Below are positions 3,101 to 22,696 of a stretch of DNA of 64,000 bases, one piece after another. The DNA comes from a bacterium (GTDB taxonomy: Bacteria > Cyanobacteriota > Sericytochromatia > S15B-MN24 > VGJW01). Under the pieces are notes generated by a model. It saw only the letters and a program-made list of their open reading frames with translations, searched no databases and had not been told where the DNA came from. Both the position numbers and the translations under genes were made by a program. Numbering within the stretch: the first letter of the stretch is position 1; each line of letters starts with the position of its first letter. The stretch is from positions 529-64,528 of the forward strand of contig JAJXWQ010000007.1 of the NCBI GenBank assembly GCA_021781555.1, read 5' to 3'.

Positions 3101-3558
3101 GCACGGACCTCGATCCCGATCGCCTTCACCCCCGGGAGCTGGCCTACCTCGGCGATGCCGTCTTCGAGCTGCATGTCCGAGAGCAGCTCTTGGGCACCAA
3201 GCTGAGACCCAGCGATCGCCATCGTATGGCGGTGGCCCGGGTTAGGGCCGAGGCGCAGGCCGCCGCCCTGGCTGCGGTGGAACCCGCCTTGAGCGAATCC
3301 GAGCGCGACCTCGTGCGAAGGGCGCGCAATCTCAAGGTTTCCACGCCCAGGTCGGTCGACCAGGATACCTACCGCCTGGCCACGGCCCTGGAGGCCCTCG
3401 TCGGCTATCTGCACGCCTCCGGGCGCACCGAACGCCTGGCTCAGATCTTCGCGCTCGCAGACTGCGCCGCGCCAGCCGGCCCCGACCCGGGCCAGCAGCC
3501 AGATCGCCAGGCAGGCCGCCAGCCGGAGCCCGGAATCGACGGAGCACAGCGGACATGA
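3097..3558 (+). CDS. mrnC: Mini-ribonuclease 3 (Mini-III)
   Basis: RNase III signature LAYLGDAVFEL. Order cysS-mrnC-rlmB is the same as in Bacillus. Likely TTG start at 3097 overlapping the cysS stop; the ORF track frame opens at 3067. Confidence 0.75.
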   Translation: MSTDLDPDRLHPRELAYLGDAVFELHVREQLLGTKLRPSDRHRMAVARVRAEAQAAALAAVEPALSESERDLVRRARNLKVSTPRSVDQDTYRLATALEALVGYLHASGRTERLAQIFALADCAAPAGPDPGQQPDRQAGRQPEPGIDGAQRT

Positions 3559-3592
3559 ACGAGCCTCGGAAGCACGGGAGCGAACAGCAACA

Positions 3593-6193: not shown

Positions 6194-6199
6194 GGTAGC

Positions 6200-6299
6200 T
6201 TCTGCAGTTTGCACGCGTCCCTCTGGGCGGGCGCCGCCCTGCACAACCGGGCCCCTTTCACTCTTCAAGCCCGATCGTTTCGAGTCGAAACCGCTCTAG
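6200..6299 (-). repeat. diverged inverted copy of the MITE/REP-like element
   Basis: ctgcagtttgcacgcgtccctctg...caaccgggcccctttcactc...cgaaaccgctctagc aligns with the reverse complement of the 55927 unit. Lies immediately after the FapA stop. Confidence 0.6.
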
Positions 6300-6345
6300 C
6301 TGCGCGTCTCCGTGGTAGGATTCCCGCAGAAAGGGAACCTCGACC

Positions 6346-8976: not shown

Positions 8977-8981
8977 CCCGT

Positions 8982-9016
8982 ACGTGGATGCGCCCGGCCA
9001 GCCGGGCGCTTCCACG
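8982..9016 (+). terminator. GC-rich hairpin downstream of the CE4 gene (no U-tract)
   Basis: acgtggaTgcgcccggc cag ccgggcgcTtccacgt: a 7+8 bp inverted repeat immediately after the stop at 8976. Confidence 0.35.
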
Positions 9017-9055
9017 TAAACCTCACGCCAGGACTTGCCGCGGGCTGGCCACCGG

Positions 9056-10438
9056 ATGAACGGTCGCTCGGTCTGCGGGTATGATTCCGGGCAGGAGGAA
9101 GGCACGCTGTCACCCGACGTACTGGTCAAGCGTGAGGTTCGCTGCCCGCTATGCGGCAAGGACTTCCGCCACTGGTCGCCCAGGAGCGGCACCTATAGCC
9201 TGATCCGGCGTGACAGCGATTTCTGCCCTCACTACCATGGCACCAATCCCACGCTCTACCAGGTCTACGTCTGCCCCGGCTGCAACTTCGCAGCCTATCG
9301 CCCGGATTTCAGCAACCTCGAGGAGAGCTCGCGCGCTGCCATTGTCTCGGCGCTGGGTCGGGTCAGGCACGAAGGAGCGGTCGATTTCTCGCAGCCAGAG
9401 CGCTCGCTCTTCGCGGCCTTGCGGAGCTTCGAACTCGCGCGGATCTCGGCCGAGGCGCGCAGGTCTCCGCCCGAGGTCCAGGCCAGTCTGATCCACCGTG
9501 CCGCCTGGATTTGCCGTTACGCCGAGGAGTTGGGGCGCGAGGTGCGCTACCTGGGTAGGGCCCGCGATCTTTACCAGGCTGCCTTCGATCGCGGCGTGGC
9601 CAGAGAGCGCCAAACCAACGATCTCGCGGTCGCATATCTGGTGGGCGAGCTCATGCTAAGGACCGGCAGAATTCCGGAGGCGCAGCCCTATCTCCTCCTG
9701 GTAGCCAACGCGAGCGACGCCAAGGCGTCGCTGGTGCGCTCGGCCAAAGACCGGTTGTACGATTCCAAGCAGGCGGCTCAGATCCAGCGCCTCCTGGAGA
9801 CCATCACCCTCTTCCACCCGATCGCCCACCTGGTCGGTCTGATCGCCGCGCACAGCGAGCGTAGATCGATCGGCCCGGGGGGAATCTTGTGTCGCAAGGG
9901 CGAACCCGGGCTCTCGATGTTCGTCGTGGCGGCCGGCGAGGCGGAGGTCTATCTCGGCGATCCGGCCGACTCGGATCCGGTCGCCATCGTGGGCCCAGGC
10001 GAGACCCTGGGCGAGATGAGCTTGTTCCTCGCGGCACCGCGGTCGGCGACGATTTTGGCTCGACCTGCCCGCACGGGACCCATGGCGGTAGCCCTCGAGA
10101 TCATCGAGATTCCCAGGACCGCCTTCCGCAATCTACTCAAGCTCGACGCCGGGGTCGTGGCGGCGATCTCCGAGACGATCGCCCGGCGCCAGCGCGAGAA
10201 CGCCCACTGGCTCGAGGAGCTCGAAATGGCGGCCGACACCCACGGCCAGCTGGAGATCCCGCTGCCCGTCTCGCAGTCTCCCGGCGGCTTGCAGTCGCTC
10301 ATCTTGCCCAAGGTCCGGCGATTCTTCGGCTTGGGCGCGGATCACGAGGCTGCCGAGGCCGTGGCCGACCAGGGGTTGGATGGGGCGGATCCACCATCGC
10401 TCGCGCCCGGCCCGGACGCCGAGGAGCTCGCAACCTGA
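9056..10438 (+). CDS. DUF2225 zinc-ribbon domain fused to a cyclic-nucleotide-binding (CAP-family) domain
   Basis: N-terminus CPLCGKDF...CPHYHGTNP..YVCPGCNFAAY matches the DUF2225 pattern. C-terminus GPGETLGEMSLF...RSATILAR is a cNMP-binding signature. The ORF-track frame opens at TTG 9035; I chose ATG 9056. Start uncertain. Confidence 0.6.
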   Translation: MNGRSVCGYDSGQEEGTLSPDVLVKREVRCPLCGKDFRHWSPRSGTYSLIRRDSDFCPHYHGTNPTLYQVYVCPGCNFAAYRPDFSNLEESSRAAIVSALGRVRHEGAVDFSQPERSLFAALRSFELARISAEARRSPPEVQASLIHRAAWICRYAEELGREVRYLGRARDLYQAAFDRGVARERQTNDLAVAYLVGELMLRTGRIPEAQPYLLLVANASDAKASLVRSAKDRLYDSKQAAQIQRLLETITLFHPIAHLVGLIAAHSERRSIGPGGILCRKGEPGLSMFVVAAGEAEVYLGDPADSDPVAIVGPGETLGEMSLFLAAPRSATILARPARTGPMAVALEIIEIPRTAFRNLLKLDAGVVAAISETIARRQRENAHWLEELEMAADTHGQLEIPLPVSQSPGGLQSLILPKVRRFFGLGADHEAAEAVADQGLDGADPPSLAPGPDAEELAT

Positions 10439-10525
10439 GCCCTCGGGCTCCGAGGTCGAGAGGGCTCTTGACCTTCTCCTCTCTCAACGGATTCGACGGG
10501 CCTCACCTCTGATACGCTCAGCGCC

Positions 10526-12154
10526 ATGGACGCGGCCGGAGAACGAAACGCGATTCGTTCACTCAGGATATTTTCGGATGTCGCCGCTTCGATCGCGCTG
10601 ATCTGTGGCGGCCTCGAGATCGCCGCCTGGATCCTGGACCTCCGGGGCCTCGAAGCCTCGGCCATGGCGCCCCTGGCGCAGGGCCCCGAGGCCGCCACAG
10701 GCCTGCTCCTCGTGGGAGCCGCCCTCATCGTGGCGGGCAGGAACTTCCCGGGCGCCCGGATCGCCTGGCAGCTTTTGGCACTGATGGCGATGACCTTCGG
10801 CACCGCGCTGTCCGTCCGCGGGCTCGGAAGGATCGACGTCGGGCTGGGGCACTTGTTCTCTCCCCATGCGGCCGCCGCGAACTTCACCTCGGCCCGGATG
10901 GCCCTGCCCACGGCCCTGGTGATCACGCTCCTCGGACTGGCCCTGCTGCTCAAGGGCCGGTCGCTGAGCCGAGCGGGGGACGCCCTGGGCACCATGGCCT
11001 TCCTGTTCCTTTACTTCGGGTTCCTCCACCAGGTCCTCAGGATCGAGTTCATGCGGGTGGAACCGCCGTTCAGGCAGGTGCCGCAGGCCTGGCTCCTCTG
11101 GATGCTGCTGAGCCTGGGGGTCACGGCGGTCCGATCGTCGCAATGGCTGGTCGACACCGCCCTGGGGCGAACGCTGACTGGCCTGATGGGGCGCCGCTTC
11201 CTGGCCGCCGTCCTCGTCACCCCGGCACTGTTGGGTTTGCTGTGGATCGTGGCGGTCAGGGCCAACGGCGTGACGCCGATCGAGCGGCTCATGACGGTCG
11301 CCCTCGGCTTCACCGCGCTCATCGTCGGCGTGATCGCCCTTGATGCCCGCCGCCTCGAACAGATCGAGACCGAGCGCGGTCGAGCCGAGGAAGCCTTGGC
11401 CATGAGCCAGGCCGAACTCAAGAAGGCAGCCGAGCTGGCCCAGCTCAAGGATTCCTTCCTCTCGACGGTATCCCACGAGATGCGCACTCCACTCTCGCTC
11501 ATCATGGGCTACGCCGAGCTTCTCGAGGACGTCTATCCCGGCGAAGAGCTCATCGCCGGGATTCAAGAAGGCACCCGAAGGCTCGCCGAGCACATCGAGC
11601 GGATCGTCGAGTACTCCGCCTTGCTCGGCGGTACCTTGCCCCTCTACCAGACGCCAGTAGACATGGCCGAACTGGCCCGCAACGTCGCCGAGGTCGAGCG
11701 GGCGCGGTTCAAGGGCAAGGATCTGACACTCACCGTCGAGGTGAGCGTCAAAACCCCCATCGTGCAGGGAGACTCGCGCCGGCTGACCGAGGTGCTCAAG
11801 GAGCTCCTCGACAACGCGATCAAGGTCACACCGCCCGGGCGCAAGGCCGGGATCCGGGTCGGACCCGAGGGCGACAAGCTGCGAATCGACGTCTGGGACA
11901 GCGGGCCCGGGATCGGCGAGTCCGAGATCGCGCGTCTCTGGGAGGCCTTCGGGCAGCTCGAGGCGGGAGATTCCGCCCGGCGCGGCGGCCTGGGGCTCGG
12001 GCTCCCGATCTCCAGAAAGCTGATCGAACTCCACGGCGGCACGCTCGCCGTGGCGAGCCAGCCCGGCGAGGGGAGCACGTTCACGGTGCTGCTGCCGGCC
12101 TTCGGAACCGAGACTACGGACGCCGGTCCGGAACTCCCGGGTTCGCCTACGTGA
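10526..12154 (+). CDS. membrane sensor histidine kinase
   Basis: Several TM helices, HisKA H-box (SHEMRTPLSLIMGYAELL) and HATPase_c G-boxes (DSGPGIGE, GLGLGLPISRKL). Confidence 0.85.
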   Translation: MDAAGERNAIRSLRIFSDVAASIALICGGLEIAAWILDLRGLEASAMAPLAQGPEAATGLLLVGAALIVAGRNFPGARIAWQLLALMAMTFGTALSVRGLGRIDVGLGHLFSPHAAAANFTSARMALPTALVITLLGLALLLKGRSLSRAGDALGTMAFLFLYFGFLHQVLRIEFMRVEPPFRQVPQAWLLWMLLSLGVTAVRSSQWLVDTALGRTLTGLMGRRFLAAVLVTPALLGLLWIVAVRANGVTPIERLMTVALGFTALIVGVIALDARRLEQIETERGRAEEALAMSQAELKKAAELAQLKDSFLSTVSHEMRTPLSLIMGYAELLEDVYPGEELIAGIQEGTRRLAEHIERIVEYSALLGGTLPLYQTPVDMAELARNVAEVERARFKGKDLTLTVEVSVKTPIVQGDSRRLTEVLKELLDNAIKVTPPGRKAGIRVGPEGDKLRIDVWDSGPGIGESEIARLWEAFGQLEAGDSARRGGLGLGLPISRKLIELHGGTLAVASQPGEGSTFTVLLPAFGTETTDAGPELPGSPT

Positions 12155-13484
12155 ACATGGCCGCAGCGCTCGTCGTCGACCCGAGCATCCGCAACTGGCG
12201 GACGGTCTCGTCGAAGGGCGTGTTGTCCCGGACGTCCTGCTTGAGATAGCCCTTGATCTGGTCCCACATCGAGATGGCACGGTCAAAGGCGGGGTTGCTC
12301 CCCCTGACGTAAGCCCCGACGTTGAGCAGATCCTGGACCTCCTTGTAATCGGCGATCATCTGGAAGACGGCCTGGCGTGCCTGCTTGTGTTCCTTGGTAG
12401 CCAGGATATCCAGCAGACGGGAAACGCTCTGTAGCACGTCGATCGCCGGGAAGATGCCCTGCGCCGCGATCGATCGCAGCATGACGATGTGGCCGTCGAG
12501 GATGCCGCGGACGGTGTCGGCGATCGGCTCGTCCATGTCGCCGCCATCGACCAGCACCGTGTAGATCCCGGTGATCGAACCTTTGTCACTGGTACCCGCC
12601 CGCTCGAGGAGCTTGGGGATGAGCGAGAAAACCGACGGCGTGTACCCCTTCTGCGCGGGCGGTTCGCCGATCGCCAGGCCGATCTCGCGCATCGCCATCG
12701 CAAAACGCGTCATCGAGTCCATCATCAAGAAGACCTTGTTGCCCTGATCGCGGAAGTACTCGGCGATGGAGGTAGCTACCAGCGGCGCCTTGAACCGCAT
12801 CAAGCTGGAGGTATCGCTCGTCGCAACCACCACGACCGAACGTCTCAAGCCTTCCTCGCCCAGGGAGTACTCGAGAAATTCCCGGACCTCGCGCCCGCGC
12901 TCTCCGACCAGGCAGAGCACGGATAGATCCGCCTTGGCCTGGCGGGCGATCTGGCCGAGCAAGGTGCTCTTGCCCACTCCCGATCCGGCGAAGATCCCGA
13001 TACGCTGGCCCTCGCCCAGGGTCAAAAAGCCGTCCATCACGCGCACGCCGGTCGGGAGAACCGTGTCGATGAGCCGCCGTGTCATCGAGTTGGGGGGAGC
13101 GTTCATCTGCGGCGTCGTCGTCTCGTACAGGAGCGGACCCTTGCCGTCGATGGGGTTGCCGAGACCGTCCAGCACGCGGCCGAGGAGCTTGGGCCCGACC
13201 TTGACGCTGACCATCCGCCCGGTCGCCACGACCTCGCAGCCCGCCCCGATGCCCTCCATCTCGGAAAGAGGCATCAGCATGACGCGCCGCGGCTTGAAGC
13301 CGACGACCTCGCACGGAAAGACCAGCTTGCGATCCTGCGAGTAGATGTGGCAAAGCTCTCCGTAACGCACGCCTTGCAACTGCGCCTCGATGACCAGGCC
13401 CACGAGCTGCACGACGATTCCCCGGGCTCGCACCGGCTCGGTATCCCGCAACGCGAGGGCGTAGGGCTCGAGAGAGATGTTCAC
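12147..13484 (-). CDS. fliI: FliI/YscN-family type III secretion ATPase
   Basis: Walker A GSGVGKST and a T3SS-ATPase N-domain. GTG start with AAGAGG upstream. Stop overlaps the convergent HK stop (CTACGTGA). Confidence 0.9.
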   Translation of the reverse strand: MNISLEPYALALRDTEPVRARGIVVQLVGLVIEAQLQGVRYGELCHIYSQDRKLVFPCEVVGFKPRRVMLMPLSEMEGIGAGCEVVATGRMVSVKVGPKLLGRVLDGLGNPIDGKGPLLYETTTPQMNAPPNSMTRRLIDTVLPTGVRVMDGFLTLGEGQRIGIFAGSGVGKSTLLGQIARQAKADLSVLCLVGERGREVREFLEYSLGEEGLRRSVVVVATSDTSSLMRFKAPLVATSIAEYFRDQGNKVFLMMDSMTRFAMAMREIGLAIGEPPAQKGYTPSVFSLIPKLLERAGTSDKGSITGIYTVLVDGGDMDEPIADTVRGILDGHIVMLRSIAAQGIFPAIDVLQSVSRLLDILATKEHKQARQAVFQMIADYKEVQDLLNVGAYVRGSNPAFDRAISMWDQIKGYLKQDVRDNTPFDETVRQLRMLGSTTSAAAMFT

Positions 13485-13514
13485 GGAAGCAAGCCTCTTG
13501 ACGTCGGCACCCGG

Positions 13515-14900
13515 CTACTGGTTGAGGTCCTCGAAGGCCTGCGACTCGGCATCGTCGACCTCGGAGAGCTCCCGCTGCACGTTCTGGAAGACCTCCTGCA
13601 AGACCGAGAGCTGGGTCTTGATGGTCGCATCCACCGTGCCCGATCCGGTCTCGATGAAGACGCCGCCCCGCTGGATCTTGTTGGACGCCTGGAACTCGAG
13701 ATGCTTGACCTGAGCCAGCATGTCCCGGAATCGATCCTCCTGGGCCTGAACCTGGGGCAGATCCTCGGTATTGACCCGCACCACGACGCGCTCCAGGTCC
13801 GTGACCCGGGTCAGCGCCTCGTCGAGGACCGACAGCACGATCTCGGGCTTGGCCGAGATCTCGTCGCAGACGATCTTTTCGGCCACGCTCATGGCGAGCT
13901 GGATGAGTTTCCTCGAGTTCTCCCGCGCTGCCTGTGGATAAGCTAGCCGAGCGCGATTGAGGGTCTCGATCGCCTCTTCGATGATCTTGGCGCCTTCCTC
14001 GTCGGCCTGCGCCCGGCCCTCGGTGTAGCCAGCCGCTCGGGCCGCCTCCACCATCTGTTCGTAGCGCTCGGACCGGGAGCGCTCGAAGTCCTCGAAGGCC
14101 TGGGCGATCTGGTTCTGCGCATCGGCCCGGGCCTCGGCTGCCGCGATCTGGGCCTCGCCGACGATCCGCTCCGCCTCGAGACGAGCCTCGGCGAGCAGCC
14201 GCTCGCGTTCGGCCAGCAGCCGCTTGCCGGCATTCTCCTTGAGCTCGAAGCCGTCGAGCAGCGCGGCGATCTGCTCCTCGGCGCTGGCGAGCTCGCGCCA
14301 ACGCGCCCGCGAGGCGGCCCGCGCCGCCTCGAACTCGGCCGCCGCCGCCGCCTGCTGCTCCAGAGTCGGCACCAGCGCATCGACCGCACTGCCGAGCTGC
14401 TGGGGATCCGCGCCGAGAGCCTCGGACAGACGTTGGGTCGCAGCCTCGAGCAGAGCCGAGAAGGTACCCTCGGGATCGGGGGCCTGATTGGCGGCCTCCT
14501 CGGCTCCGGCCTGGGCAGCGGCTTCGGCGGCGGTCAGGATCTCCTGCCTGGCGCCCTCGAACCCCGCCAACCAATCCCCATCCGCCTCGAGGGCCGCGTC
14601 GAGTCCGGCCGCGGCTCCCCCCGGCGCCGGCTCTGCAACGCCAGCCCCGGCGCTCGCTACGGGATCGACGGGACGAGCCGGGGCCTCGGGTCCTGGCGAC
14701 TCCGGCTGCAGCGGCACGATGTCGAGGTCCGATTCGGCCATCGGCACGACCCGCTCGGCCCTGCGCAGCCCGCTCTCGGGGGCGTCGACTCGCCGGCGCA
14801 CACGGCCCGGACGGCCTTCGCCCTCGTCGGCGATAACCTGGTCGCCGGCGACCACGACCGACCCGCCCTGGTCGACCTTGCTACCCTTTATCAGCGCCAC
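13515..14900 (-). CDS. fliH: FliH/YscL-family ATPase regulator with a ~200-aa Ala/Glu/Pro-rich N-terminal extension
   Basis: C-terminal 260 aa match FliH (coiled coil, then ...RGGVFIETGSGTVDATIKTQL). 30-bp gap to fliI. Annotated start is a GTG without a clear SD. Start uncertain. Confidence 0.65.
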   Translation of the reverse strand: MALIKGSKVDQGGSVVVAGDQVIADEGEGRPGRVRRRVDAPESGLRRAERVVPMAESDLDIVPLQPESPGPEAPARPVDPVASAGAGVAEPAPGGAAAGLDAALEADGDWLAGFEGARQEILTAAEAAAQAGAEEAANQAPDPEGTFSALLEAATQRLSEALGADPQQLGSAVDALVPTLEQQAAAAAEFEAARAASRARWRELASAEEQIAALLDGFELKENAGKRLLAERERLLAEARLEAERIVGEAQIAAAEARADAQNQIAQAFEDFERSRSERYEQMVEAARAAGYTEGRAQADEEGAKIIEEAIETLNRARLAYPQAARENSRKLIQLAMSVAEKIVCDEISAKPEIVLSVLDEALTRVTDLERVVVRVNTEDLPQVQAQEDRFRDMLAQVKHLEFQASNKIQRGGVFIETGSGTVDATIKTQLSVLQEVFQNVQRELSEVDDAESQAFEDLNQ

Positions 14901-15038
14901 GATCGAACTATACCCGTCAAAGAGCGGCCATGCGAGGTGCTGGATGTCGAAGTCGGCGCCAGGCGCGGCCTGTCGTCGCGATCCTCGGGGCAGCGCCCCC
15001 TCTCGAGCTCCTGCCAGCTAACCCAGAGCAGCCAAGCC

Positions 15039-15278
15039 TCAGGCCAGGTCCTCGATCTGGCTCAGCAGATCCTCGAACGAGGCGAAACCCTCACAGTCGC
15101 CGCAACGCAGCAGGATCACGCGCAGCTTTTCGGTGTGGCCATGGCGGAACTCGACCTCGCGCTCTCCGCGCTCGAGGACCAGCTTTTCCCGGCTCACCGG
15201 AAAATGGACTCCCTCCGTGGCCTGCATCAGCGCCGCAACTCCGAAGCGCCGGGGATGTTCACCTGTAGCGTCTGCCAT
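15039..15278 (-). CDS. DUF2795-like small protein
   Basis: GVHFPVSREKLV ... FASFEDLLSQI resembles the DUF2795 pattern (VDYPASK.DLV ... P..Y.SP.DV). 79 aa. Confidence 0.45.
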   Translation of the reverse strand: MADATGEHPRRFGVAALMQATEGVHFPVSREKLVLERGEREVEFRHGHTEKLRVILLRCGDCEGFASFEDLLSQIEDLA

Positions 15279-15354
15279 GGCTTTACCCTCCCGAGCTGAG
15301 CCTATCTCAGTCGGCCTTCCGTGTCTGGCCCGGCGCCAGCTCGCACGGGCTGCT

Positions 15355-17253
15355 TCAGTCCAGGCCCACCGAGTAGCCGAAGTTCACGCTGGCGTTGAAG
15401 GGGAAGAGCGTCATCGTGGACGTCAGCGACCAGGAGAGGCAAGCGGCGCGGTAGGTCAGCCGCAGCGTGGCATCGTTGAAGTTTAGCCGGAGGGCGCCCT
15501 GCGGACGGTAGAAGTTGGCGCCCACGTCGGTGTACCAGTGGCGAGTCCACGCGTAAGAGGCGCTGCCGAAGACCCGATCCCCGCTTGGCGCCTGATCGAA
15601 GTAGAACGGCGAGCGGCCCAGCAGCTGGTCGGTCTCCGCCCCGAAATCCGTGGACCATCGTGCCGCCCAGCGCTGTATGTTGTTGAGCCCGACGACGCCG
15701 CTCACCTGGTACGCGGGCTTCCACGACCTCGCGCCCAAAGCTGGCGGCTCCAGGTATTCCGTCGCCGTACCCCAGGCGTAACCGTCGGTCTCCCAGAAGG
15801 GCTCGGGTCGCCAGGCGGGGGCCGCCACTGCGACGTGAACGGATCCAGCAACGGCACTGGCATGCGGCGGCTCGTCGAACGGCAACCACTCGAGCTGCGG
15901 CAAGGGCGAGAGTTCCTGGAAGTAGCCCACCCGCGCCGTCGGGTTGATCATCAAGGGCCCAAGGCCCAGATTACCGAGATTGAGGTCCAGATCGCCCAGT
16001 CGGTTGACGTTCTGGCCGTTGATATCCGATCGGTAGCCGGCGCCGAGCGAAAGACTCCTGCCGCCTGCCAGAGCCAGCAGGGCGCCACCATTGGCGCGCG
16101 GGCCGTAGGTTCCGCCCTGAAACGGCGTCTGGTAGGTCGCGTCACCCGATAGCGAGATGTTCCCGACCTTGGCGGTCCCCTGGGTGCCGAAGAGGATGCC
16201 CCGCCCCTGCGTGACACGGAAGGGAATCGTGCCCTGGATGTACTTGCCCAGAGCGAAAGCGCCGGCACCGGCCGCGAAGGCCCCCTCGTACGGGTCGTAC
16301 CCGGCCTGGGCACCGAGGGTGTGCGACCCGCGCCGATGGGAGATCTGGTCCTTGAGGCTCGTATTGATCTCGGGAATCGAAGCCAGGGTCCAGCCCGAGA
16401 CGTGCAGGGCCACGTCGTGGGCTTCAAAGATCTGCCGATCGCCGAACGGGTGCCACTTCAGCTTCTTGCTGGAAAGGAAGTATCCGGGGTCGTCAGCCAT
16501 GCACGGACTGAAAACCGTGTTCCGGGCCAAAGCATAGGAAGGCGAGAGATACAGGAAGCTGCCGCTGGCGCGCCCGCGGTGGGCCGCTCGGCCCGACCAG
16601 TGCCAGGCCTGGGCCTCCTGGTGGAGGAGGTCGAAATCGAAGCGGTCGGCGCGGAGGCGGTAACCTTTGATCGTGAACCGCACGTGGTTGTCCGCGTGGC
16701 CCCGCCGGGCCGCCGCATCGAAGTAGAGCCGCCCGGCCGACAGGGAGTAGGATCCGTACCACGCCTGCACGTGGCCCGTGGCGATGAGGATGGACGCATC
16801 GGTTCTTGCCTCGATATGGTCGGCCCAGATCACCAGGGTCTGGCCTCCCGGCTCGTTCACGGTCACCGAGGCCGAGGCTTTTCCGGGCCGGGCGGGTGAG
16901 GACTCCGCCTGTGCCGGTCCGAACTCGTCGGGCAGCAGCGTCGGCGGCAAATAGGGATTGGGCGAGGGGCCGACCTGGGGTTCGGGCAGGGCATCGGGAT
17001 CCGGCAGCGCCGGCCCGGCGAGAGGATCCCCGATGCCCATAGGGGCGAGGACCGGGCTCTCGAAACAGCACGCCGCGGGAGCGAGCGCAGGAGACGGCGA
17101 GGGCGACGGCGAAGGCAAGGGGGACGGCGAGGGCGAGGGAAAAGGCTCGGCCGAAGCCAGTAGATCGGGGATCGGGTTGCCCAGATGATCGCCCGTGATG
17201 GGCAGGTAAGCGGCGGCAAGATGGATCGCCGCGGCGCAAAGCAGGGCGATCAT
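15355..17253 (-). CDS. OstA-domain (LptD-like) outer-membrane beta-barrel protein with an (SP)n linker
   Basis: Signal peptide, SPSPSPLPSPSPSPSP linker, OstA-like N-domain (TLVIWADHIEARTDASILIATGHVQAWYGSYSLSAGRLYFD) and a Gly/aromatic-rich C-terminal half consistent with a beta-barrel. Start overlaps the DUF58 stop (ATGA). Confidence 0.5.
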   Translation of the reverse strand: MIALLCAAAIHLAAAYLPITGDHLGNPIPDLLASAEPFPSPSPSPLPSPSPSPSPALAPAACCFESPVLAPMGIGDPLAGPALPDPDALPEPQVGPSPNPYLPPTLLPDEFGPAQAESSPARPGKASASVTVNEPGGQTLVIWADHIEARTDASILIATGHVQAWYGSYSLSAGRLYFDAAARRGHADNHVRFTIKGYRLRADRFDFDLLHQEAQAWHWSGRAAHRGRASGSFLYLSPSYALARNTVFSPCMADDPGYFLSSKKLKWHPFGDRQIFEAHDVALHVSGWTLASIPEINTSLKDQISHRRGSHTLGAQAGYDPYEGAFAAGAGAFALGKYIQGTIPFRVTQGRGILFGTQGTAKVGNISLSGDATYQTPFQGGTYGPRANGGALLALAGGRSLSLGAGYRSDINGQNVNRLGDLDLNLGNLGLGPLMINPTARVGYFQELSPLPQLEWLPFDEPPHASAVAGSVHVAVAAPAWRPEPFWETDGYAWGTATEYLEPPALGARSWKPAYQVSGVVGLNNIQRWAARWSTDFGAETDQLLGRSPFYFDQAPSGDRVFGSASYAWTRHWYTDVGANFYRPQGALRLNFNDATLRLTYRAACLSWSLTSTMTLFPFNASVNFGYSVGLD

Positions 17254-18395
17254 CGCACTTCGGGCCGGTGGGCCCGGAGCCTGCGCTTGCCCCTGCGCTT
17301 GAAGAAGGCGAAAACCGGACGCCAGAAGGACTCGCCCGTCCGCAGCTCGATCTCGTCGATCCCCATGGCGGCAAAGGCCTGCTGACGCGTGCGGCGGCGG
17401 GTCTCGGCGATCTGGCGGTAGCGTTGCTGCACGTCGGGATCCGAGGTGTCGACGACGGCGCTGACACCCGTCTCGGGGTCCATGAAACTAACCCGTCCCA
17501 GCGCAGGCAAGACCTCCTCCATGCGATCCGTCAGCGTCACCGCGATCACGTCGTGCCGCGCCAGTCGCCGGAGCGATTCGAGATCGGCCGCCAGGAAGTC
17601 CGAGCAGACGAAGATCGTGGCAGGCCGGCGCACCAGGCGCGCCAGCGCGATCACGGCACCCTGGAACGCAGCCGGGAAGGGTCCGGTTGCCGCGGACGTG
17701 CCGACCTCCAGGTCGAGGGCTCCCACGGTCGGGCTCGTGGGTCCGACGTCGAGGAGATCGTGGACCAGGCGCAGGACATGTGCGCGCCCTTTGCGCGGCG
17801 GGACGAAACGGACGGTCTTCGAACCGAACAGGAAAAGCCCGACGCGATCGTGGTTGGCCATGGCCGAAAGCGCGATGGCCATCGCGAAGCGACCGGCGAG
17901 ATCCCGCTTGAGCTCGGTGCCGGCCGTCGCAAAATCCAGGCTGCGCGAGCCATCCACGGCGAGGATGACGGTCAGCTCGCGCTCCTCGACGAATTTCTTG
18001 ACGAAGAGCCGATCCATCCGCGCCGTCACGTTCCAGTCGATCGTGCGCGGATCATCGCCCTCTTGATACTCCCGGACCTCGTCGAAGATCATCCCCCGTC
18101 CCTTGAACACACTCTGGTATTCTCCGGCCAGGATGCTGCGAACCAGGCGATCGCTCTGGATCTCGAGCCGGCGGATCTTCCTGGCCATCCGGCTCGTCGC
18201 CTCGGGGACCGGAGCGGGCCTCGCGATCGCCCGACGCCAGCGGTTCCATCCGAGCACCAGGAAGCCCGTGGATGGCCACGGGATGCGCAGCGGCCGAAAC
18301 GACCTCCCGGTCGCTGCCAGGCGCTCCCGGGGCGATCGCCTGAAACCGTCTCGATGGCCCGAAGAGGGCCCGCGCTTGAGCGAACGGCCAGACAA
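17250..18395 (-). CDS. DUF58 protein (MoxR partner, vWA-like fold)
   Basis: Conserved DUF58 core (YQEGDDPRTIDWNVTARMDRLFVKKF...ILAVDGSRSL). Start lies 3 nt after the MoxR stop. Confidence 0.75.
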   Translation of the reverse strand: MSGRSLKRGPSSGHRDGFRRSPRERLAATGRSFRPLRIPWPSTGFLVLGWNRWRRAIARPAPVPEATSRMARKIRRLEIQSDRLVRSILAGEYQSVFKGRGMIFDEVREYQEGDDPRTIDWNVTARMDRLFVKKFVEERELTVILAVDGSRSLDFATAGTELKRDLAGRFAMAIALSAMANHDRVGLFLFGSKTVRFVPPRKGRAHVLRLVHDLLDVGPTSPTVGALDLEVGTSAATGPFPAAFQGAVIALARLVRRPATIFVCSDFLAADLESLRRLARHDVIAVTLTDRMEEVLPALGRVSFMDPETGVSAVVDTSDPDVQQRYRQIAETRRRTRQQAFAAMGIDEIELRTGESFWRPVFAFFKRRGKRRLRAHRPEVR

Positions 18396-18397
18396 GC

Positions 18398-19387
18398 CTA
18401 CGGCACCCGTAGTGACAGCAAACGCCTCACCACGAAATCCACGGACACCTCCTCGGCCTCGGCCTCGTACGTCAGCAGGACGCGGTGCCGCAAGACGTCC
18501 AGGGCGATGGCCTTGACGTCGTCAGGGAGCACGTACGCTCGCTTGCGCAAGAAGGCATGGGCCTTGGCGGCCTGGATGAGGTAGATGCTCGCCCGCGGCG
18601 AGGCCCCGTACGCGATGAGGGGGGCAAGATCCTCCATGCCGGCTTCCTTGGGCTGCCGCGTCGCGGCAACAAGATCCACCACGTAGCGCTTGATCTTGTC
18701 TGATACCAGGATGTCGGCCGCGAGGTTACGGGCCTCGAGAACCAGCTCCAGGGTACCGAGCTTGGCGAGCTGCACCTCCCGACGCACCGTCATACGATCG
18801 AGGATCTCGAGCTCCTCGCTCTTGCTGGGATAGGTCACCTTGACCTTGAACATGAAGCGATCGAGCTGGGCTTCGGGCAAAGAGTAGACCCCTTCGTTAT
18901 CCATGGGGTTCATCGTGGCCATCACCAGGAAGGGCTCGGGCAAGGCGAGGGTCTCGCCGCCGATGGTGACCTGCCGCTCCTGCATGGCCTCGAGGAGAGC
19001 GCTCTGGACCTTTGCCGGGGCACGGTTGACCTCGTCCGCCAGGACCAAATTGCCGAAGATCGGCCCCCTCTTGGTCTGGAAACGGCCCTTCTTCGCATCG
19101 AAGATGGAGGTGCCGAGGATGTCTGCCGGCAAGAGGTCGGGGGTGAACTGGATGCGGCTGAACTCGGCCTGCAGCACCTGGGCCAAGGTGCTGATCGAGA
19201 GGGTCTTGGCCAGGCCCGGGACGCCCTCGAGCAGGATATGGCCGTCCGCCAGCAAACCGATGAGCAGGCGATCGATCAGCGCCCCCTGGCCGACGATCAC
19301 GCGCTTGATCTCGGCGGTGATCTGACCGAAGCGCTCGGCAGCGGCCCGCACGCGTTCATTGGCCTCGAGGATGGTGTTGTCGATCAC
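18398..19387 (-). CDS. MoxR-family AAA+ ATPase
   Basis: Walker A GVPGLAKT, Walker B LLADEVNRA and the MoxR-specific C-terminus. Confidence 0.9.
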   Translation of the reverse strand: MIDNTILEANERVRAAAERFGQITAEIKRVIVGQGALIDRLLIGLLADGHILLEGVPGLAKTLSISTLAQVLQAEFSRIQFTPDLLPADILGTSIFDAKKGRFQTKRGPIFGNLVLADEVNRAPAKVQSALLEAMQERQVTIGGETLALPEPFLVMATMNPMDNEGVYSLPEAQLDRFMFKVKVTYPSKSEELEILDRMTVRREVQLAKLGTLELVLEARNLAADILVSDKIKRYVVDLVAATRQPKEAGMEDLAPLIAYGASPRASIYLIQAAKAHAFLRKRAYVLPDDVKAIALDVLRHRVLLTYEAEAEEVSVDFVVRRLLSLRVP

Positions 19388-19766
19388 GATCCGGAATCTT
19401 TCCTTGTTCGGCGCAGAACCGAGCGCGACTTGCGGGGCAAGGCCGGGGACCGCGCCATTTTACTAGAGATCGGCCCCTGCCAGCGTGTTACGCGCGGGGT
19501 CCCCTTGGCGAGCACCCGGCGATCCGTACCACGAACCTACGGAGTTTCCCCGCATGGCCAGGCGCTCGTACATGCTACGATCTCTTCATCGTCCTCCTGG
19601 TGAACCTCCAGCTGATCTTCGCAGTTTCATCGCAGCATCGGTCCTAGCAACGTCCCGCGCATTGTCTCCGATTCCACCAGGACGGTATCGGAAGGGCTCC
19701 GTCAGGGGCCCTTTCGCGTTAGGGGCCCGGATCGGTCCGGACGGCTCGTGCCGGCCCTGGTAACAT

Positions 19767-20567
19767 GTGCGGGTGCTCGACATCCTGAAGCCCGCGCTCC
19801 AAAACCTCCACGCCATGGCGACTGGTGCCATCGCCGCCCTGCCTCAGGTCCTGCTGGGTCTGCTGGTTTTCGGGATCTCCCTGCGGATCGCGCGCTGGGG
19901 TCGCCAGTGGACGCACCGGGCGATAGGACAGGCAGGCAAGCGCGAGGACGCCGCCCTGGTCGTAGGGCAGCTCGCCTACGGCGCGCTGATCGTCGGAGGG
20001 ACGGCCGCTGCCGCCGCCGTCATGGGCGTTGGCCTCGGCAGCGTCCTGGCAGGCATCGGCGTGTCGGGCATGGTCGTCGGGTTCGCCTTCAAGGACATTC
20101 TCGAGAATTATCTCGCCGGCATCCTGTTGATGCTGGCCCGGCCCTTCGTTACCGGTGACGACATCAAGACGGGCGACTACGAAGGCCGGGTTCTGGCAGT
20201 ATCCACGCGCAGCACGACCATCGATACCGGAGACGGTCAGCTGGTGGTCATCCCCAACGCCAGGATCTACTCGCAGGCCCTGATCAACCTCTCGGCACTT
20301 GGAATCCGCAGATCCATCCTGCCCCTCCACGTCGAGATCAGCCAGGATCTCGATGCGACGCGCAGTGCGATCGAGGCCATCGCGGGAGCGAACCCCCTGG
20401 TCCTTCACGATCCGGGTCCCGAGCTCCTGGCGACCGCCCTGGATGCCACCGGGGTCAATGTCGAACTGCGCTTCTGGTCCCGGGCGCAGGACGCCCAGGC
20501 CGCCAGGGGCCAGCTCGTGGAGGCGATCCGCCGGCAGCTCTTCGCGCCGGTCACGCCGCCGCGCTGA
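19767..20567 (+). CDS. MscS-family mechanosensitive channel
   Basis: GTG start. TM helices followed by the MscS beta domain (GDYEGRVLAVSTRSTTIDTGDGQLVVIPNARI). Confidence 0.8.
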   Translation: MRVLDILKPALQNLHAMATGAIAALPQVLLGLLVFGISLRIARWGRQWTHRAIGQAGKREDAALVVGQLAYGALIVGGTAAAAAVMGVGLGSVLAGIGVSGMVVGFAFKDILENYLAGILLMLARPFVTGDDIKTGDYEGRVLAVSTRSTTIDTGDGQLVVIPNARIYSQALINLSALGIRRSILPLHVEISQDLDATRSAIEAIAGANPLVLHDPGPELLATALDATGVNVELRFWSRAQDAQAARGQLVEAIRRQLFAPVTPPR

Positions 20568-20648: not shown

Positions 20649-21419
20649 TCAGGACGGCAACAGCCGTTTGACCATTCCGTGCAGCGCCTCGTACTGCCTC
20701 AGCCCATCCTCGAGATGCTGCATGGCCCGGTCGGGTCGGAAGGCCTGGTTGGCCGAGAACAGCGGATCCGTCGCTGGATAACCGCCCTCGGTCCGACGCA
20801 TGCTGTAGACGTAGCGGCCGTGGTGCACGAGATGCAGATCGAAATCGCAATAGGTCTCGATCCCGCGGGACCTTGCCCGCTCCCCGAACGCCCAATCCTC
20901 CCCGAGGTGGATGGGCGTGCCCTCCGAGTCCTTGATGAGAATCGGGTTGAAAAATCCCATGTAAGTCTTCAAGAACTCGATGTAACGAAGGGACTCATCG
21001 GCGATATTCTCGAAAACCTCGCGCCGGATCAGCAAGAAACCGGTCGGCAGGTACCGAACCTTGGCCAGTCCGCGGGCCAGTGGCGGCTGATCCTTCTCGG
21101 CTGCGACAAGAAGCTCGAGGGGGAACATCTTGCGTGGATATGTCGCCCCGACGATCGCTTTGTCATGGCGATACAGACGATCGACGCCATCCGGCGGGAA
21201 AGAGAGGTCCGAATCGATCATCATGAGGCTGTCGCAGTCCGACTCTGCAAACAACGCCGCGAGCTTGTTCCGGGCTCGCGAAATCAGCGACTCCCCGGTC
21301 AAGATCTGCACGTCGAAGCGATGCCCCCCCGGATTCCGGCTCAGCATCGCGACGAGGCTCTCCACCGCAGGTACGTGGAAGCCCCCCCCGACGGGCAGAC
21401 CCAGCATGATCCTGGCCAT
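20649..21419 (-). CDS. GT-A fold (family-2-like) glycosyltransferase, paralog A (DxD intact: DSD)
   Basis: ISRARN...MIDSDLSF and GEDWAFGERARSRG motifs. Confidence 0.55.
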   Translation of the reverse strand: MARIMLGLPVGGGFHVPAVESLVAMLSRNPGGHRFDVQILTGESLISRARNKLAALFAESDCDSLMMIDSDLSFPPDGVDRLYRHDKAIVGATYPRKMFPLELLVAAEKDQPPLARGLAKVRYLPTGFLLIRREVFENIADESLRYIEFLKTYMGFFNPILIKDSEGTPIHLGEDWAFGERARSRGIETYCDFDLHLVHHGRYVYSMRRTEGGYPATDPLFSANQAFRPDRAMQHLEDGLRQYEALHGMVKRLLPS

Positions 21420-21421
21420 CG

Positions 21422-22258
21422 TCAGCGCACCCTCCGTTCGAGGTACTCCGCCATCGACCTGGCCGCGGCCTCCTTGAGGCTGACCTCGAGCATCTCCAGT
21501 TGATCCACGAAGGCGGCTACCGGAGGCGGAAGCTCGACGCCAGGGGGCCGCAGCGCGGCGGAGGGAAGCGCCATCAGTCGCTCGACGACCGGAAAGTACT
21601 CGTGGATCGGCACGGCGCCATCGGCAAGCGGATCCACCTGGTAGGCATACGACCCCGCGCGACCGATCGCCAGGTCGAAGTCGCAGGATACGGACAGGCC
21701 GCGATCGCGAGCCCGCTGACAGAAAGCCCGATCCTCACCGAGATGAACGGCCACGCCGTCCGTCACCACGACGGGGTCGAAGAAACCGGCGATCCGGCGC
21801 CCGAAATCCTCGCGGATGATCGCACTGCCGGCCATCGCCTCCAGGGCTTCACGACGGATCAGGATGAAACCAGCTGGAGCGAACTCGACCTGCAGCAGGC
21901 CCGCGAGCGTAGCTGGAGCATCGCCGGAAAGCCGCAGTCCCCTCTCGAAGGCATCCTCCCACGTGGGATAAGGCCCCACGACGATGGGGACCTCGTGCGC
22001 CAGGAGGCGATCGATCGCATCCGGATCGAAGGTCAACCCCGACTCGAGGATCATCAAGCCGGCGGCATCGGACCTGAGCAAGGCGTCGGCGAGAAAGTCG
22101 CGAGCCCGGCCCGGCGAAAGCCCGGGTGGGATCCGCTCGATCTCGAACTCATGTTTACCGGGATTGGCCTGGATGGCGGCGAGCAGGCTCGCCACCGTGC
22201 CGGGAAAGAGCGTGGCGTCCCCGCCGGACGCAAGAAGACCCAACAAGATTCGTGCCAC
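21422..22258 (-). CDS. GT-A fold glycosyltransferase paralog B (DxD replaced by ESG)
   Basis: Collinear with paralog A (GEDRAFCQRARDRG retained) but the DxD position reads LMILESGLTF. 3-bp gap to paralog A. Confidence 0.55.
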   Translation of the reverse strand: MARILLGLLASGGDATLFPGTVASLLAAIQANPGKHEFEIERIPPGLSPGRARDFLADALLRSDAAGLMILESGLTFDPDAIDRLLAHEVPIVVGPYPTWEDAFERGLRLSGDAPATLAGLLQVEFAPAGFILIRREALEAMAGSAIIREDFGRRIAGFFDPVVVTDGVAVHLGEDRAFCQRARDRGLSVSCDFDLAIGRAGSYAYQVDPLADGAVPIHEYFPVVERLMALPSAALRPPGVELPPPVAAFVDQLEMLEVSLKEAAARSMAEYLERRVR

Positions 22259-22423: not shown

Positions 22424-22648
22424 CTACTCCTTGTGGAAGGAGCGGACCGCCTGCGAGACGTCGTCCATCAACTTCTTGAGCATGTCGAGACGAGTCTCCA
22501 TGTCGAGCATGTAGGCCTGGAATTCATCCGGCGTGTAGCCGCCACTGCCGACGTTCGCGGCCTTGGTCTGGATGTCCTTCAGCAGGTTCTGCACACCCTG
22601 GGAGATGGTCTCCATCGTGCTTACGCCTTGGACATGAATCGAACCCAT
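22424..22648 (-). CDS. small helical hypothetical protein (74 aa)
   Basis: ATG preceded by AAAGGAAAGAACG. Helical, acidic. Sits between the regulator and the GT pair. Confidence 0.4.
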   Translation of the reverse strand: MGSIHVQGVSTMETISQGVQNLLKDIQTKAANVGSGGYTPDEFQAYMLDMETRLDMLKKLMDDVSQAVRSFHKE

Positions 22649-22696
22649 CGTTCTTTCCTTTCTTGACTGAACGCTCCCGACCCACCGCGGTCGCAC

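What the first reader, a model, noticed from the sequence alone, without database searches (positions are those of the whole stretch)
12147..19387. Orphan FliH/FliI (T3SS-type ATPase pair) embedded in a MoxR-DUF58-OstA-like OMP-DUF2795 operon
Six minus-strand genes run with short gaps or overlaps. MoxR and DUF58 are 3 nt apart. DUF58 and the OstA-like OMP overlap with ATGA. Gaps of 77 and 139 bp flank the DUF2795 gene. FliH and FliI are 30 bp apart. No fliE/F/G/J, flhA/B, fliPQR or sct genes occur anywhere in the 64 kb, so this is not a flagellar or injectisome core locus. The FliH homolog carries an extra 200-aa Ala/Glu/Pro-rich N-terminal region. T3SS-type ATPase-stator pairs outside flagella or injectisomes are rare; the chlamydial orphan fliH/fliI are known examples. 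Coupling to a MoxR AAA+ chaperone system and an OstA-fold outer-membrane barrel suggests an envelope-spanning assembly, secretion or lipid-transport-like machine that has not been described.
Basis: partly seen in the sequence, partly recalled or inferred. Interest (0 to 1): 0.8.

Follow-up and report, generated by a model that had tools for sequence, protein, structure and literature searches.

The report
Detached FliH-FliI pair in conserved cluster
An uncultured relative of cyanobacteria (class Sericytochromatia) keeps a working-looking flagellar-type export ATPase (FliI) and a double-length FliH outside any flagellar operon, next to a MoxR chaperone pair and an LptD-like outer-membrane protein; the arrangement recurs in many related species, but whether a flagellum is encoded elsewhere could not be tested.

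Summary
Six minus-strand genes at 12147-19387 encode MoxR, DUF58/VWA, an LptD-like outer-membrane protein ("X"), a small DUF5789 protein (not DUF2795), a 461-aa FliH and FliI. No other flagellar or injectisome gene lies in the 64 kb.

The contig is from a Sericytochromatia-type MAG. MoxR-DUF58-X-(DUF5789)-FliH-FliI recurs in about 12 species-level genomes, although X has diverged to 26-40% identity. FliI stays 80-90% identical where GltX is 52-68%.

Three results cut against "one undescribed machine, no flagellum":
- fliH-fliI also occurs without the MoxR module in sister clades.
- A conserved GGGTA promoter-like box sits just upstream of fliH in most species.
- In five related contigs, canonical motA-motB, with the FliG-contact residues kept, are transcribed divergently from the DUF58-to-FliI genes.

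The FliH N-terminus also resembles that of one normal flagellar FliH. Both points suggest a C-ring-type partner encoded elsewhere.

My estimates: ATPase complex of a flagellar-type apparatus whose core lies elsewhere, about 0.5; a re-used, non-flagellar envelope machine, about 0.3. Genome-wide flagellar gene content was not testable here. I rate it a new variant of a known kind.

The parts
18398..19387 (-). MoxR-type AAA+ ATPase (329 aa)
   Evidence: Pfam AAA_3 at 2.3e-63 and AAA_lid_2 at 4.3e-22. It is 73-81% identical in 12 related loci.
17250..18188 (-). DUF58/VWA protein. The likely start is the ATG at 18188 (312 aa). The longest ORF runs to a TTG at 18395.
   Evidence: Pfam DUF58 at 3.1e-60 and VWA_2 at 6.4e-07. 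Public gene calls give 312 aa. The stop overlaps the X start as ATGA.
15355..17253 (-). X: LptD-like outer-membrane protein (632 aa). It has a hydrophobic N-terminus, a Pro/Ser-rich disordered linker (aa ~20-125), an Lpt-type beta-jellyroll (128-300) and a beta-barrel of about 18 strands (313-629).
15039..15278 (-). Small DUF5789-family protein (79 aa)
   Evidence: Pfam PF19102 at 2.1e-05, 24.8 bits, above cutoff. It is found immediately upstream of fliH in the window and in L015, L019-L022, L026, L039, L040, L009, L025 and L027, and one gene further upstream in L004. That includes loci that lack MoxR/DUF58/X.
14906..14915 (-). Conserved promoter-like box GGGTATAGTT, 15 nt before the fliH start codon
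   Evidence: A GGGTA box lies upstream of fliH in 18 of 20 FliH loci with the MALIK-type N-terminus. It sits exactly 15 nt from the start in 9 of them. Only 3 of 44 window genes have GGGTA within 120 nt upstream.
13515..14900 (-). Long FliH (461 aa). Layout: conserved N-terminal peptide MALIKGSKV..VVVAGDQ, a disordered P/E/A/G linker (to ~aa 106), a lineage-specific three-helix domain (110-217), long coiled-coil helices (223-350), and the FliH C-terminal domain.
   Evidence: Pfam FliH at 3e-18, aa 323-432. NCBIfam FliH models align from aa ~219. Family alignment of 22 sequences is. Foldseek hits the 5b0o FliH-FliI complex and V-ATPase subunit E.
12147..13484 (-). FliI/YscN-family T3SS ATPase (445 aa)
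   Evidence: TIGR01026 at 582 bits (cutoff 379.5). FliI_clade2 scores 592 (cutoff 630) and SctN scores 572 (cutoff 605). The GSGVGKS P-loop, the GERGREV motif and the MDS(M/L)TR Walker-B-type segment align with E. coli FliI, 45% identity overall. It is 80-97% identical across the clade.
10526..12154 (+). Membrane histidine kinase, convergent with fliI and overlapping its 3' end by 8 nt. It is a conserved neighbour, and membership in the system is uncertain.
   Evidence: Pfam HisKA and HATPase_c. A homologous HK follows fliI in L014, L020, L022, L039 and L040, and is a CHASE-HK in L022.

Best explanation
fliH-fliI here encode a functional T3SS-type ATPase complex, with FliI as the hexameric ATPase and a FliH dimer as its peripheral stalk or tether. 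In Sericytochromatia this pair has left the canonical fliE-F-G-H-I-J operon and acquired its own promoter. FliH has also gained an insertion of about 200 aa between its N-terminal docking peptide and its coiled coil.

In one large subclade, which includes this window, the pair sits directly downstream of a MoxR AAA+ / DUF58-VWA chaperone pair, an LptD-like outer-membrane beta-jellyroll/barrel protein and a small DUF5789 protein. In a sister subclade, canonical MotA/MotB stator genes are transcribed divergently from the same gene string.

The most likely reading is that FliH/FliI still serve a flagellar-type (type III) basal apparatus whose membrane and C-ring parts are encoded elsewhere in the genome. 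On this reading the MoxR-VWA-LptD-like genes are a lineage-specific envelope module that is co-located, and probably co-regulated, with these motor and export parts.

Shown here: gene identities, intact catalytic motifs, strong purifying selection on FliI, conservation of the neighbourhood, the promoter-like box, and the presence of MotAB in relatives.

Inferred: docking to a C-ring-type partner, existence of the remaining apparatus, and any physical link between FliHI and the MoxR/VWA/LptD-like proteins.
For: 1. FliI is a bona fide family member with intact motifs. It is 58-61% identical to annotated flagellar FliI of Sporomusa and other Firmicutes.
2. FliI is the most conserved protein in the region. 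It is 80-90% identical where GltX is 52-68%, MoxR 73-81%, FliH 38-61% and X 26-40%. It is therefore functional.
3. MotA/MotB lie inside the cluster in L020, L021, L022 (CBMW_12), L039 and L040. L022 MotA scores 308.5 bits on TIGR03818, above the 303.8 cutoff. The FliG-contact residues R90 and E98, plus P173, P222 and MotB D32, are conserved.
4. The FliH extreme N-terminus is invariant across the family (A2 L3 I4 K5 ... G19 D20). MALIKGS resembles SRVIKAA of the 262-aa FliH in a canonical flgB-flgC-fliE-F-G-H-I-J operon (L054). From general knowledge, that peptide docks FliH to FliN/FliM in flagella.
5. Every genome sampled showed only one FliI type.
6. Sister lineages (Melainabacteria/Vampirovibrionia) include flagellated members (PMC6340189).
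Against: - No other flagellar, chemotaxis-core or sct gene was found in the 64-kb window. None was found within +/-10 kb of fliHI in about 20 species-level loci either (Pfam; phmmer).
- No fliJ follows fliI in any of them, unlike the canonical locus L054.
- fliHI sit in at least five different non-flagellar contexts.
- FliH is 428-584 aa rather than about 260 aa.
- FliI and FliH score below all NCBIfam equivalog cutoffs.
- MotAB were found only in one subclade. A pattern-based metagenome scan recovered no close MotA from other subclades, although that scan is not exhaustive.
- The papers that mention Sericytochromatia and that I opened do not describe flagellar genes for the class.
Confidence: 0.5

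Rival explanations
1. Re-used machine. Sericytochromatia have lost the flagellum. They retain FliH/FliI, and in one subclade MotAB, as energy modules of a new envelope system. That system also contains the MoxR-VWA chaperone pair, DUF5789 and the LptD-like outer-membrane protein. The lineage-specific FliH insertion domain (aa 110-217) would provide the new docking surface.
For: - DUF58-X-(DUF5789)-FliH-FliI is conserved with short gaps or overlaps in about 12 species, although X has diverged to 26-40% identity.
- In group C, motAB share a highly conserved divergent control region with this gene string.
- The pair is completely detached from flagellar operons in every genome seen, and no fliJ is present.
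- FliH length has doubled, with a confidently predicted new helical domain (pLDDT 90-97) that has no PDB match.
- FliI is more conserved than the tRNA synthetase GltX, which is unusual for a dispensable motility gene.
- There is precedent for re-use of flagellar T3SS parts in non-flagellated Lysobacter (PMC7277350) and for orphan FliI/FlhA/FliF in Chlamydia (PMC2830194).
Against: - The MotA residues that contact FliG and the FliH N-terminal peptide are conserved. Both normally need a C ring.
- fliHI occur without MoxR/DUF58/X in several clades.
- fliH has its own promoter-like box.
- L004 has an opposite-strand gene between DUF5789 and fliH.
- The cluster encodes no inner-membrane component that could connect the cytoplasmic ATPases to an outer-membrane barrel.
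- MoxR/VWA and FliHI are cytoplasmic whereas X is exported.
Confidence: 0.3
2. Adjacency without shared function. MoxR-DUF58-X is an independent envelope-biogenesis operon, for example for maturation or handling of a divergent LptD. fliH-fliI is a separate transcription unit that happens to lie downstream through inherited synteny.
For: - A conserved promoter-like box lies directly upstream of fliH.
- The wider neighbourhood is also syntenic: gltX, mscS, the M14 and C11 peptidases, DUF2225-cNMP, DUF4015 and FapA. Much of the conservation could therefore be general synteny.
- fliHI are found elsewhere without the module.
Against: - Adjacency survives to GltX identities of about 52% and X identities of 26-31%. 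At that divergence gene order is rarely kept without selection.
- Gaps are only 46-80 bp in L006/L007.
- DUF5789 travels with fliH both with and without the MoxR module.
- motAB inserted precisely into this cluster.
Confidence: 0.15

Closest known systems
Flagellar export ATPase complex FliH2-FliI (for example the Salmonella FliH-FliI complex, PDB 5B0O) in canonical fliE-F-G-H-I-J operons, such as locus L054
   Same: The FliI domain architecture and catalytic motifs match. FliI is 58-61% identical to annotated flagellar FliI of Sporomusa and other Firmicutes and 45% identical to E. coli FliI. The FliH C-terminal domain and coiled coil match 5b0o. The N-terminal x-hydrophobic-I-K peptide is shared.
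   Different: The pair is detached from all other flagellar genes in about 20 genomes, and there is no adjacent fliJ. FliH is 428-584 aa, with a disordered linker and a new three-helix domain. Scores fall below the equivalog cutoffs. The pair has its own GGGTA promoter-like box.
Orphan or re-used flagellar T3SS genes in non-flagellated bacteria: Chlamydia pneumoniae FliI/FlhA/FliF (PMC2830194) and the Lysobacter enzymogenes OH11 FT3SS-like genes that affect twitching (PMC7277350)
   Same: A FliI-type ATPase is retained outside a functional flagellar regulon, and a new role is proposed.
   Different: Those organisms also keep export-gate genes (FlhA, FlhB, FliR, FliF) or a separate injectisome. 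Here only FliH/FliI, plus MotAB in some relatives, are seen locally, and the rest of the genome is unknown. FliI here is far closer to flagellar FliI. By my recollection, chlamydial FliI is much more divergent.
MoxR-VWA (DUF58) chaperone operons, for example the Bacteroides/Leptospira bat operon type and RavA-ViaA (named from general knowledge)
   Same: An AAA_3 MoxR gene is followed by a DUF58/VWA gene.
   Different: The third gene is an LptD-like outer-membrane protein, translationally coupled by an ATGA overlap, rather than BatA/BatB-type membrane VWA proteins. The operon is followed by DUF5789-FliH-FliI.
LptD (LPS-assembly outer-membrane protein; PDB 5iv9, 4q35, 8h1s)
   Different: There is no Pfam hit on X itself. 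The barrel has about 18 strands rather than 26, and global TM-scores are only 0.30-0.37. A long Pro/Ser-rich linker follows the N-terminal hydrophobic segment. The family is small, with 16 representatives below 1e-30.

Membership tests
FliI/YscN T3SS ATPase family (TIGR01026) | Whole-protein score above the curated cutoff; ATP-synt_ab plus T3SS_ATPase_C domains; Walker motifs | tested here: met
   582.3 bits against a 379.5 cutoff. Pfam PF00006 at 5.6e-88 and PF18269 at 5.5e-24. Motifs align with E. coli FliI.
Flagellar FliI (equivalog models FliI_clade1/2/3) | Score above the equivalog trusted cutoff | tested here: not met
   Clade 2 scores 592.1 against 629.8, clade 1 scores 561.7 against 619.1, and clade 3 scores 535.1 against 587.45. 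These are near misses.
Flagellar export apparatus (fT3SS) | Genomic presence of the export gate (FlhA, FlhB, FliPQR), MS/C ring (FliF, FliG, FliM/N), FliJ, and rod, hook and filament genes | not testable with these tools
   These genes are absent from the 64-kb window and from +/-10 kb of fliHI in about 20 related loci. Whole genomes could not be queried because the protein and genome scans were capped.
Flagellar export apparatus (fT3SS) | fliH-fliI embedded in a fliF-fliG-...-fliJ operon | tested here: not met
   No such arrangement appears in the window or in any Sericytochromatia locus. The canonical arrangement is seen only in the more distant L054.
FliH/SctL family | FliH C-terminal domain (PF02108) above the gathering score, preceded by a coiled coil | tested here: met
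   66.4 bits against a 24.1 cutoff. The AF2 model matches 5b0o FliH with TMt 0.70. The equivalog FliH models are all below cutoff; the best scores 99.5 against 200.
Non-flagellar T3SS (injectisome) SctN/SctL | SctN equivalog cutoff, plus sctC/J/V/R/S/T/U genes | tested here: not met
   TIGR02546 scores 571.7 against 604.75. No sct genes or secretin occur in the window or in related loci.
MoxR AAA+ / VWA chaperone pair | AAA_3 MoxR ATPase with an adjacent VWA/DUF58 gene | tested here: met
   AAA_3 at 212 bits, DUF58 at 203 bits and VWA_2 at 30 bits. The pairing is conserved in 12 loci.
LptD | Sequence membership (Pfam LptD_N PF03968 or LptD PF04453) | tested here: not met
   X has no Pfam or NCBIfam hit. 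Only its remote homologs carry these domains.
LptD | Architecture: periplasmic Lpt beta-jellyroll plus outer-membrane barrel | tested here: met
LptD | 26-stranded barrel that houses the LptE plug | tested here: not met
   About 18 long strands are counted from DSSP of the model, and 18-strand porins match the barrel. The count comes from a model only. LptE was not searched for.
Flagellar stator MotA/MotB (relatives only, not in the window) | MotA1 equivalog cutoff; R90/E98/P173/P222; MotB D32 and an OmpA-like domain | tested here: met
   L022 MotA scores 308.5 against 303.8. MotB's best hits are MotB models, but all are below cutoff. The residues are conserved in 5 loci. No MotA or MotB was found in the window.
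   Only DUF5789 (PF19102) is reported, even at E<=1.

The most novel reading that the evidence does not exclude
Sericytochromatia have no flagellum. The long FliH plus FliI, joined by MotAB in one subclade, would then be surviving energy modules rebuilt into an undescribed envelope machine. That machine would also include a MoxR/VWA chaperone pair, DUF5789 and a mini-LptD-like outer-membrane channel. It would be an evolutionary intermediate showing how flagellar parts are re-used on the branch leading to the non-flagellated photosynthetic cyanobacteria.
Probability: 0.3. Interest if true: 0.85.

Novelty: new variant of a known kind. Interest (0 to 1): 0.58.

Why it matters
Photosynthetic cyanobacteria have no flagella, while some of their non-photosynthetic relatives (Melainabacteria) do. 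Sericytochromatia branch between the two.

This class universally keeps a highly constrained FliI and a remodelled FliH outside any flagellar operon, tied to a MoxR-VWA-LptD-like module and sometimes to MotAB. There are two ways to read that:
- It marks an unusual, scattered flagellar system with new accessory envelope proteins.
- It is a rare case of a T3SS ATPase and a stator being re-used after flagellar loss.

Both readings can be tested directly by whole-genome HMM surveys of existing MAGs. The result would bear on how complex machines are dismantled or repurposed.

Tried and rejected
1. An exact look-up of the window FliI returned nothing. I reached the contig through protein X instead.
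2. I tested whether the FliH N-terminal half is a fused FliG or FliJ. Pfam gave no such hit, phmmer with E. coli FliG and FliJ gave none, and a profile search of PDB sequences gave nothing significant. Rejected.
3. I spliced FliH aa 1-30 to aa 222-461 and scanned NCBIfam to see whether the N-terminus aligns with model N-termini. Alignments still began at about aa 39-46, so the test was inconclusive. The comparison with one canonical FliH (L054) is the only support for N-terminal homology.
4. I looked for statements on Sericytochromatia flagella or T3SS in the literature and found none. Soo et al. 2017 is not held. One search was wasted on terms that were too general.
6. The terminator and sigma-70 promoter scan of 11900-19900 gave counts at chance level and found nothing in the X/DUF5789/fliH intergenic regions.
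7. A -32 element matching the Synechocystis SigF promoter (TAGGC) is not conserved upstream of the GGGTA box. The SigF link is therefore only a lead.
8. The metagenome scan with CBMW_12 MotA found only two close relatives, both in the same cluster context. The other hits (37-46% identity) have no Sericytochromatia cluster genes around them and are probably from other taxa.

Full report
**What is at the locus**

The window is high-GC DNA (about 67%). Six minus-strand ORFs with coding-type GC3 occupy 12147-19387. Pfam and NCBIfam identify them as follows:
- MoxR, 18398-19387.
- DUF58/VWA, 17250-18188 or to 18395.
- An unassigned 632-aa protein "X", 15355-17253.
- A 79-aa DUF5789 protein, 15039-15278. 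It gave no DUF2795 hit even at E<=1.
- A 461-aa FliH, 13515-14900. The FliH domain covers only aa 323-432.
- FliI, 12147-13484. TIGR01026 scores 582 bits, above its cutoff. The FliI_clade2 score of 592 and the SctN score of 572 are both just below their equivalog cutoffs.

- The ATGA overlap of DUF58 and X is real.
- The 30-nt FliH-FliI spacer is real.
- The other gaps are 76 and 138 nt.
- The claimed 3-nt MoxR-DUF58 spacing depends on a TTG start. Public gene calls use an ATG 209 nt downstream of the MoxR stop.

No other flagellar or sct gene was found in the window. This rests on Pfam scans of the called genes. It also rests on phmmer with 41 E. coli flagellar and chemotaxis proteins against all ORFs of at least 40 aa. 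The exceptions are a FapA/DUF342 protein at 4853-6193 and one marginal CheY match to a response-regulator gene.

**Source organism**

Protein X is 100% identical to a protein on a 66.9-kb metagenomic contig. Its few homologs are labelled Candidatus Sericytochromatia or "Cyanobacteria bacterium" MAGs. Scans with FliH and FliI recovered Sericytochromatia MAGs, including CBMW_12 and a "Tanganyikabacteria" MAG. PMC8245535 describes the latter lineage.

**Protein X**

A profile search of 1.84 billion representative proteins found only 16 relatives below 1e-30. A long tail of weak hits matched the N-terminal domain, and some of those carry Pfam LptD_N or LptD.

An AF2 model has mean pLDDT 78, and about 90 or higher through most of the folded region. 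It shows four parts:
- A hydrophobic N-terminus.
- A disordered Pro/Ser-rich linker of about 100 aa.
- A beta-jellyroll at aa 128-300.
- A barrel of about 18 strands at aa 313-629.

**FliH and FliI**

FliI retains the P-loop, catalytic and Walker-B-type motifs and is 45% identical to E. coli FliI.

The long FliH defines a family of about 40 clusters, nearly all 430-490 aa. Its alignment shows this layout:
- An invariant N-terminal peptide, M-A-L-I-K ... G ... V-V-x-G-D.
- A linker of variable length rich in Pro and Glu.
- A conserved region from about aa 115 onward.

AF2 predicts aa 1-106 as disordered. It predicts a confident three-helix domain at aa 110-217 (pLDDT 90-97), then the usual long helices and C-terminal domain. 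Foldseek matches only the C-terminal part, to the 5b0o FliH-FliI complex and V-ATPase subunit E.

The extension is best described as an insertion behind a retained N-terminal peptide. The 262-aa FliH of a canonical flgB-flgC-fliE-F-G-H-I-J operon (L054) starts SRVIKAAV, compared with MALIKGSKV here.

**Conservation of the neighbourhood**

I used gene-context look-ups, a scan of GTDB species genomes with the FliH alignment and phmmer mapping. They show the following arrangements:
- MoxR-DUF58-X-DUF5789-FliH-FliI: the window, L004, L026 and probably L019. In L004 an opposite-strand PRC-domain gene lies between DUF5789 and fliH.
- MoxR-DUF58-X-FliH-FliI: L006, L007, L017, L018 and the Tanganyikabacteria locus L024.
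- MoxR | motB-motA | DUF58-X-DUF5789-FliH-FliI: L020, L021, L022 (CBMW_12), L039 and L040.
- DUF5789-FliH-FliI without the MoxR module: L009 and L025.
- FliH(428-584 aa)-FliI alone between housekeeping genes: L011, L037, L038 and L055.
- FliI alone: L013.

Against the window proteins, FliI is 80-90% identical where GltX is 52-68%. MoxR is 73-81%, DUF58 49-66%, FliH 38-61% and X only 26-40%. Gene order that survives such divergence argues for selection on the arrangement. FliI is clearly under strong purifying selection.

**Evidence against a single obligatory operon**

A GGGTA[T/C/G] box lies upstream of fliH in 18 of 20 FliH loci that carry the MALIK-type N-terminus. It sits exactly 15 nt before the start codon in nine of them, including the window (14906-14915), and 36-45 nt before it in the others. 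Only 3 of 44 window genes have GGGTA within 120 nt upstream. A similar box, CGGGTATGCT, precedes DUF58 in the motAB-containing group.

fliH-fliI therefore very probably has its own promoter. The box resembles the -12 element (GGTAA / GGGTAAG) of promoters read by the group-3 sigma factor SigF in Synechocystis (PMC2532724). No matching -32 element is conserved, so this is only a lead. The consensus scan found no terminator-like site in the intergenic regions between X and fliH, so read-through remains possible.

**The motAB finding**

In five contigs, motA-motB are transcribed divergently from DUF58-X-DUF5789-FliH-FliI across a highly conserved intergenic region of roughly 60-160 bp, depending on the DUF58 start.
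- L022 MotA passes the TIGR03818 "flagellar motor stator protein MotA" equivalog cutoff (308.5 against 303.8).
- MotA R90, E98, P173 and P222, and MotB D32 with its plug segment, are conserved.

From general knowledge, R90 and E98 contact FliG, and the FliH N-terminal peptide docks on FliN/FliM. That both interfaces are retained suggests a C-ring-type partner still exists somewhere in these genomes. Chance placement of motAB within 4 kb of fliHI in a multi-megabase genome is very unlikely. The cluster therefore gathers motor and export energy modules together.

**Weighing the explanations**

For a flagellar-type apparatus encoded elsewhere (about 0.5):
- The conserved interfaces just described.
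- FliI identity of 58-61% to flagellar FliI.
- One FliI type in every genome sampled.
- Flagellated sister lineages (PMC6340189).

For re-use after flagellar loss (about 0.3):
- Complete detachment from flagellar operons in about 20 genomes.
- No fliJ.
- A remodelled FliH.
- Tight linkage to non-flagellar genes.
- Unusually strong conservation of FliI.
- Precedents in Lysobacter (PMC7277350) and Chlamydia (PMC2830194).

Inherited adjacency without shared function is less likely (about 0.15), given the depth of conservation.

The decisive test is a whole-genome HMM census of flagellar core genes in these MAGs. I could not run it because the large protein and genome scans were capped and context look-ups reach only +/-10 kb.

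**Verdict**

- The conserved coupling of FliH/FliI with a MoxR-VWA-LptD-like module is real, and I found no description of it in the literature searched.
- "Orphan, not flagellar" is unproven. The motAB result and the FliH N-terminus make it less likely.
- The six genes are not an indivisible unit.

I rate it a new variant of a known kind, of moderate to high interest.

Noticed in passing
window 14906-14915 (minus strand); same position relative to fliH in L004, L006, L007, L014, L015, L017, L018, L024: A GGGTA[T/C]... box lies exactly 15 nt before the fliH start codon, which is often GTG. This implies a leaderless or near-leaderless transcript. A similar box precedes DUF58 in L020-L022, L039 and L040, and phnD in the window (57745). 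It resembles the -12 element of Synechocystis SigF promoters.
   Followed up: partly
L020 ~6384-6450, L021, L022 6460-6622, L039/L040 ~9811-10001: The intergenic region between motA and DUF58 is highly conserved. It contains TTGTAA-N18-TAAATT and a perfect palindrome, TAGTTCTGAAGAACTA, just upstream of motA. The palindrome is probably an operator.
   Followed up: no
window 22424-22696 (-): A 90-aa protein with a weak WXG100 match (E 8e-4). It is conserved near gltX and this cluster in L004, L006, L007, L017 and L018, and is present in two copies in L024.
   Followed up: no
window 20649-21419 and 21422-22258 (-): Two adjacent proteins of 256 and 278 aa with similar N-termini (MARI(M/L)LGL...) and no Pfam hit. 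They are probably tandem paralogs. They lie between mscS and the WXG100-like gene, next to a 1034-aa AAA/TPR/BTAD regulator (22812-25916).
   Followed up: no
window 10526-12154 (+) versus 12147-13484 (-): The histidine kinase gene and fliI converge and overlap by 8 nt at their 3' ends. A homologous HK, which is a CHASE-HK in CBMW_12, follows fliI in L014, L020, L022, L039 and L040.
   Followed up: partly
window 4853-10438: A block of FapA/DUF342, DUF4015 with a polysaccharide deacetylase domain, and DUF2225 with a cNMP-binding domain is syntenic with the cluster in L007, L017, L018 and L024. FapA is named for a role in flagellar assembly in Vibrio, but the family is broad.
   Followed up: no
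window 17080-17160 (X aa ~35-60): The window's X carries a (Pro-Ser)n run, PSPSPSPLPSPSPSPSP, in its disordered linker. The run is absent from orthologs P0002-P0004.
   Followed up: no
window 1601-4657: The gene order cysS, mini-RNase III, rlmB matches the order I recall for Bacillus and other Firmicutes. That is unexpected for a cyanobacterial relative.
   Followed up: no
L013 (ENA ERZ21878443 contig_1, 5.18 Mb) 10001-11395: A 464-aa FliI, 64% identical to the window FliI, stands alone with no FliH. It is flanked by methyltransferases, a small TPR protein and a WecG glycosyltransferase in what appears to be a closed genome. This would be a good target for a genome-wide census of flagellar genes.
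   Followed up: no
L055 8246-10000: In a 44%-GC 'Cyanobacteria JACYMC01' contig the FliH partner is 584 aa. It has an MGLLKAAD N-terminus and an acidic repeat-rich insertion, so the FliH insertion varies greatly in length across the wider clade.
   Followed up: no
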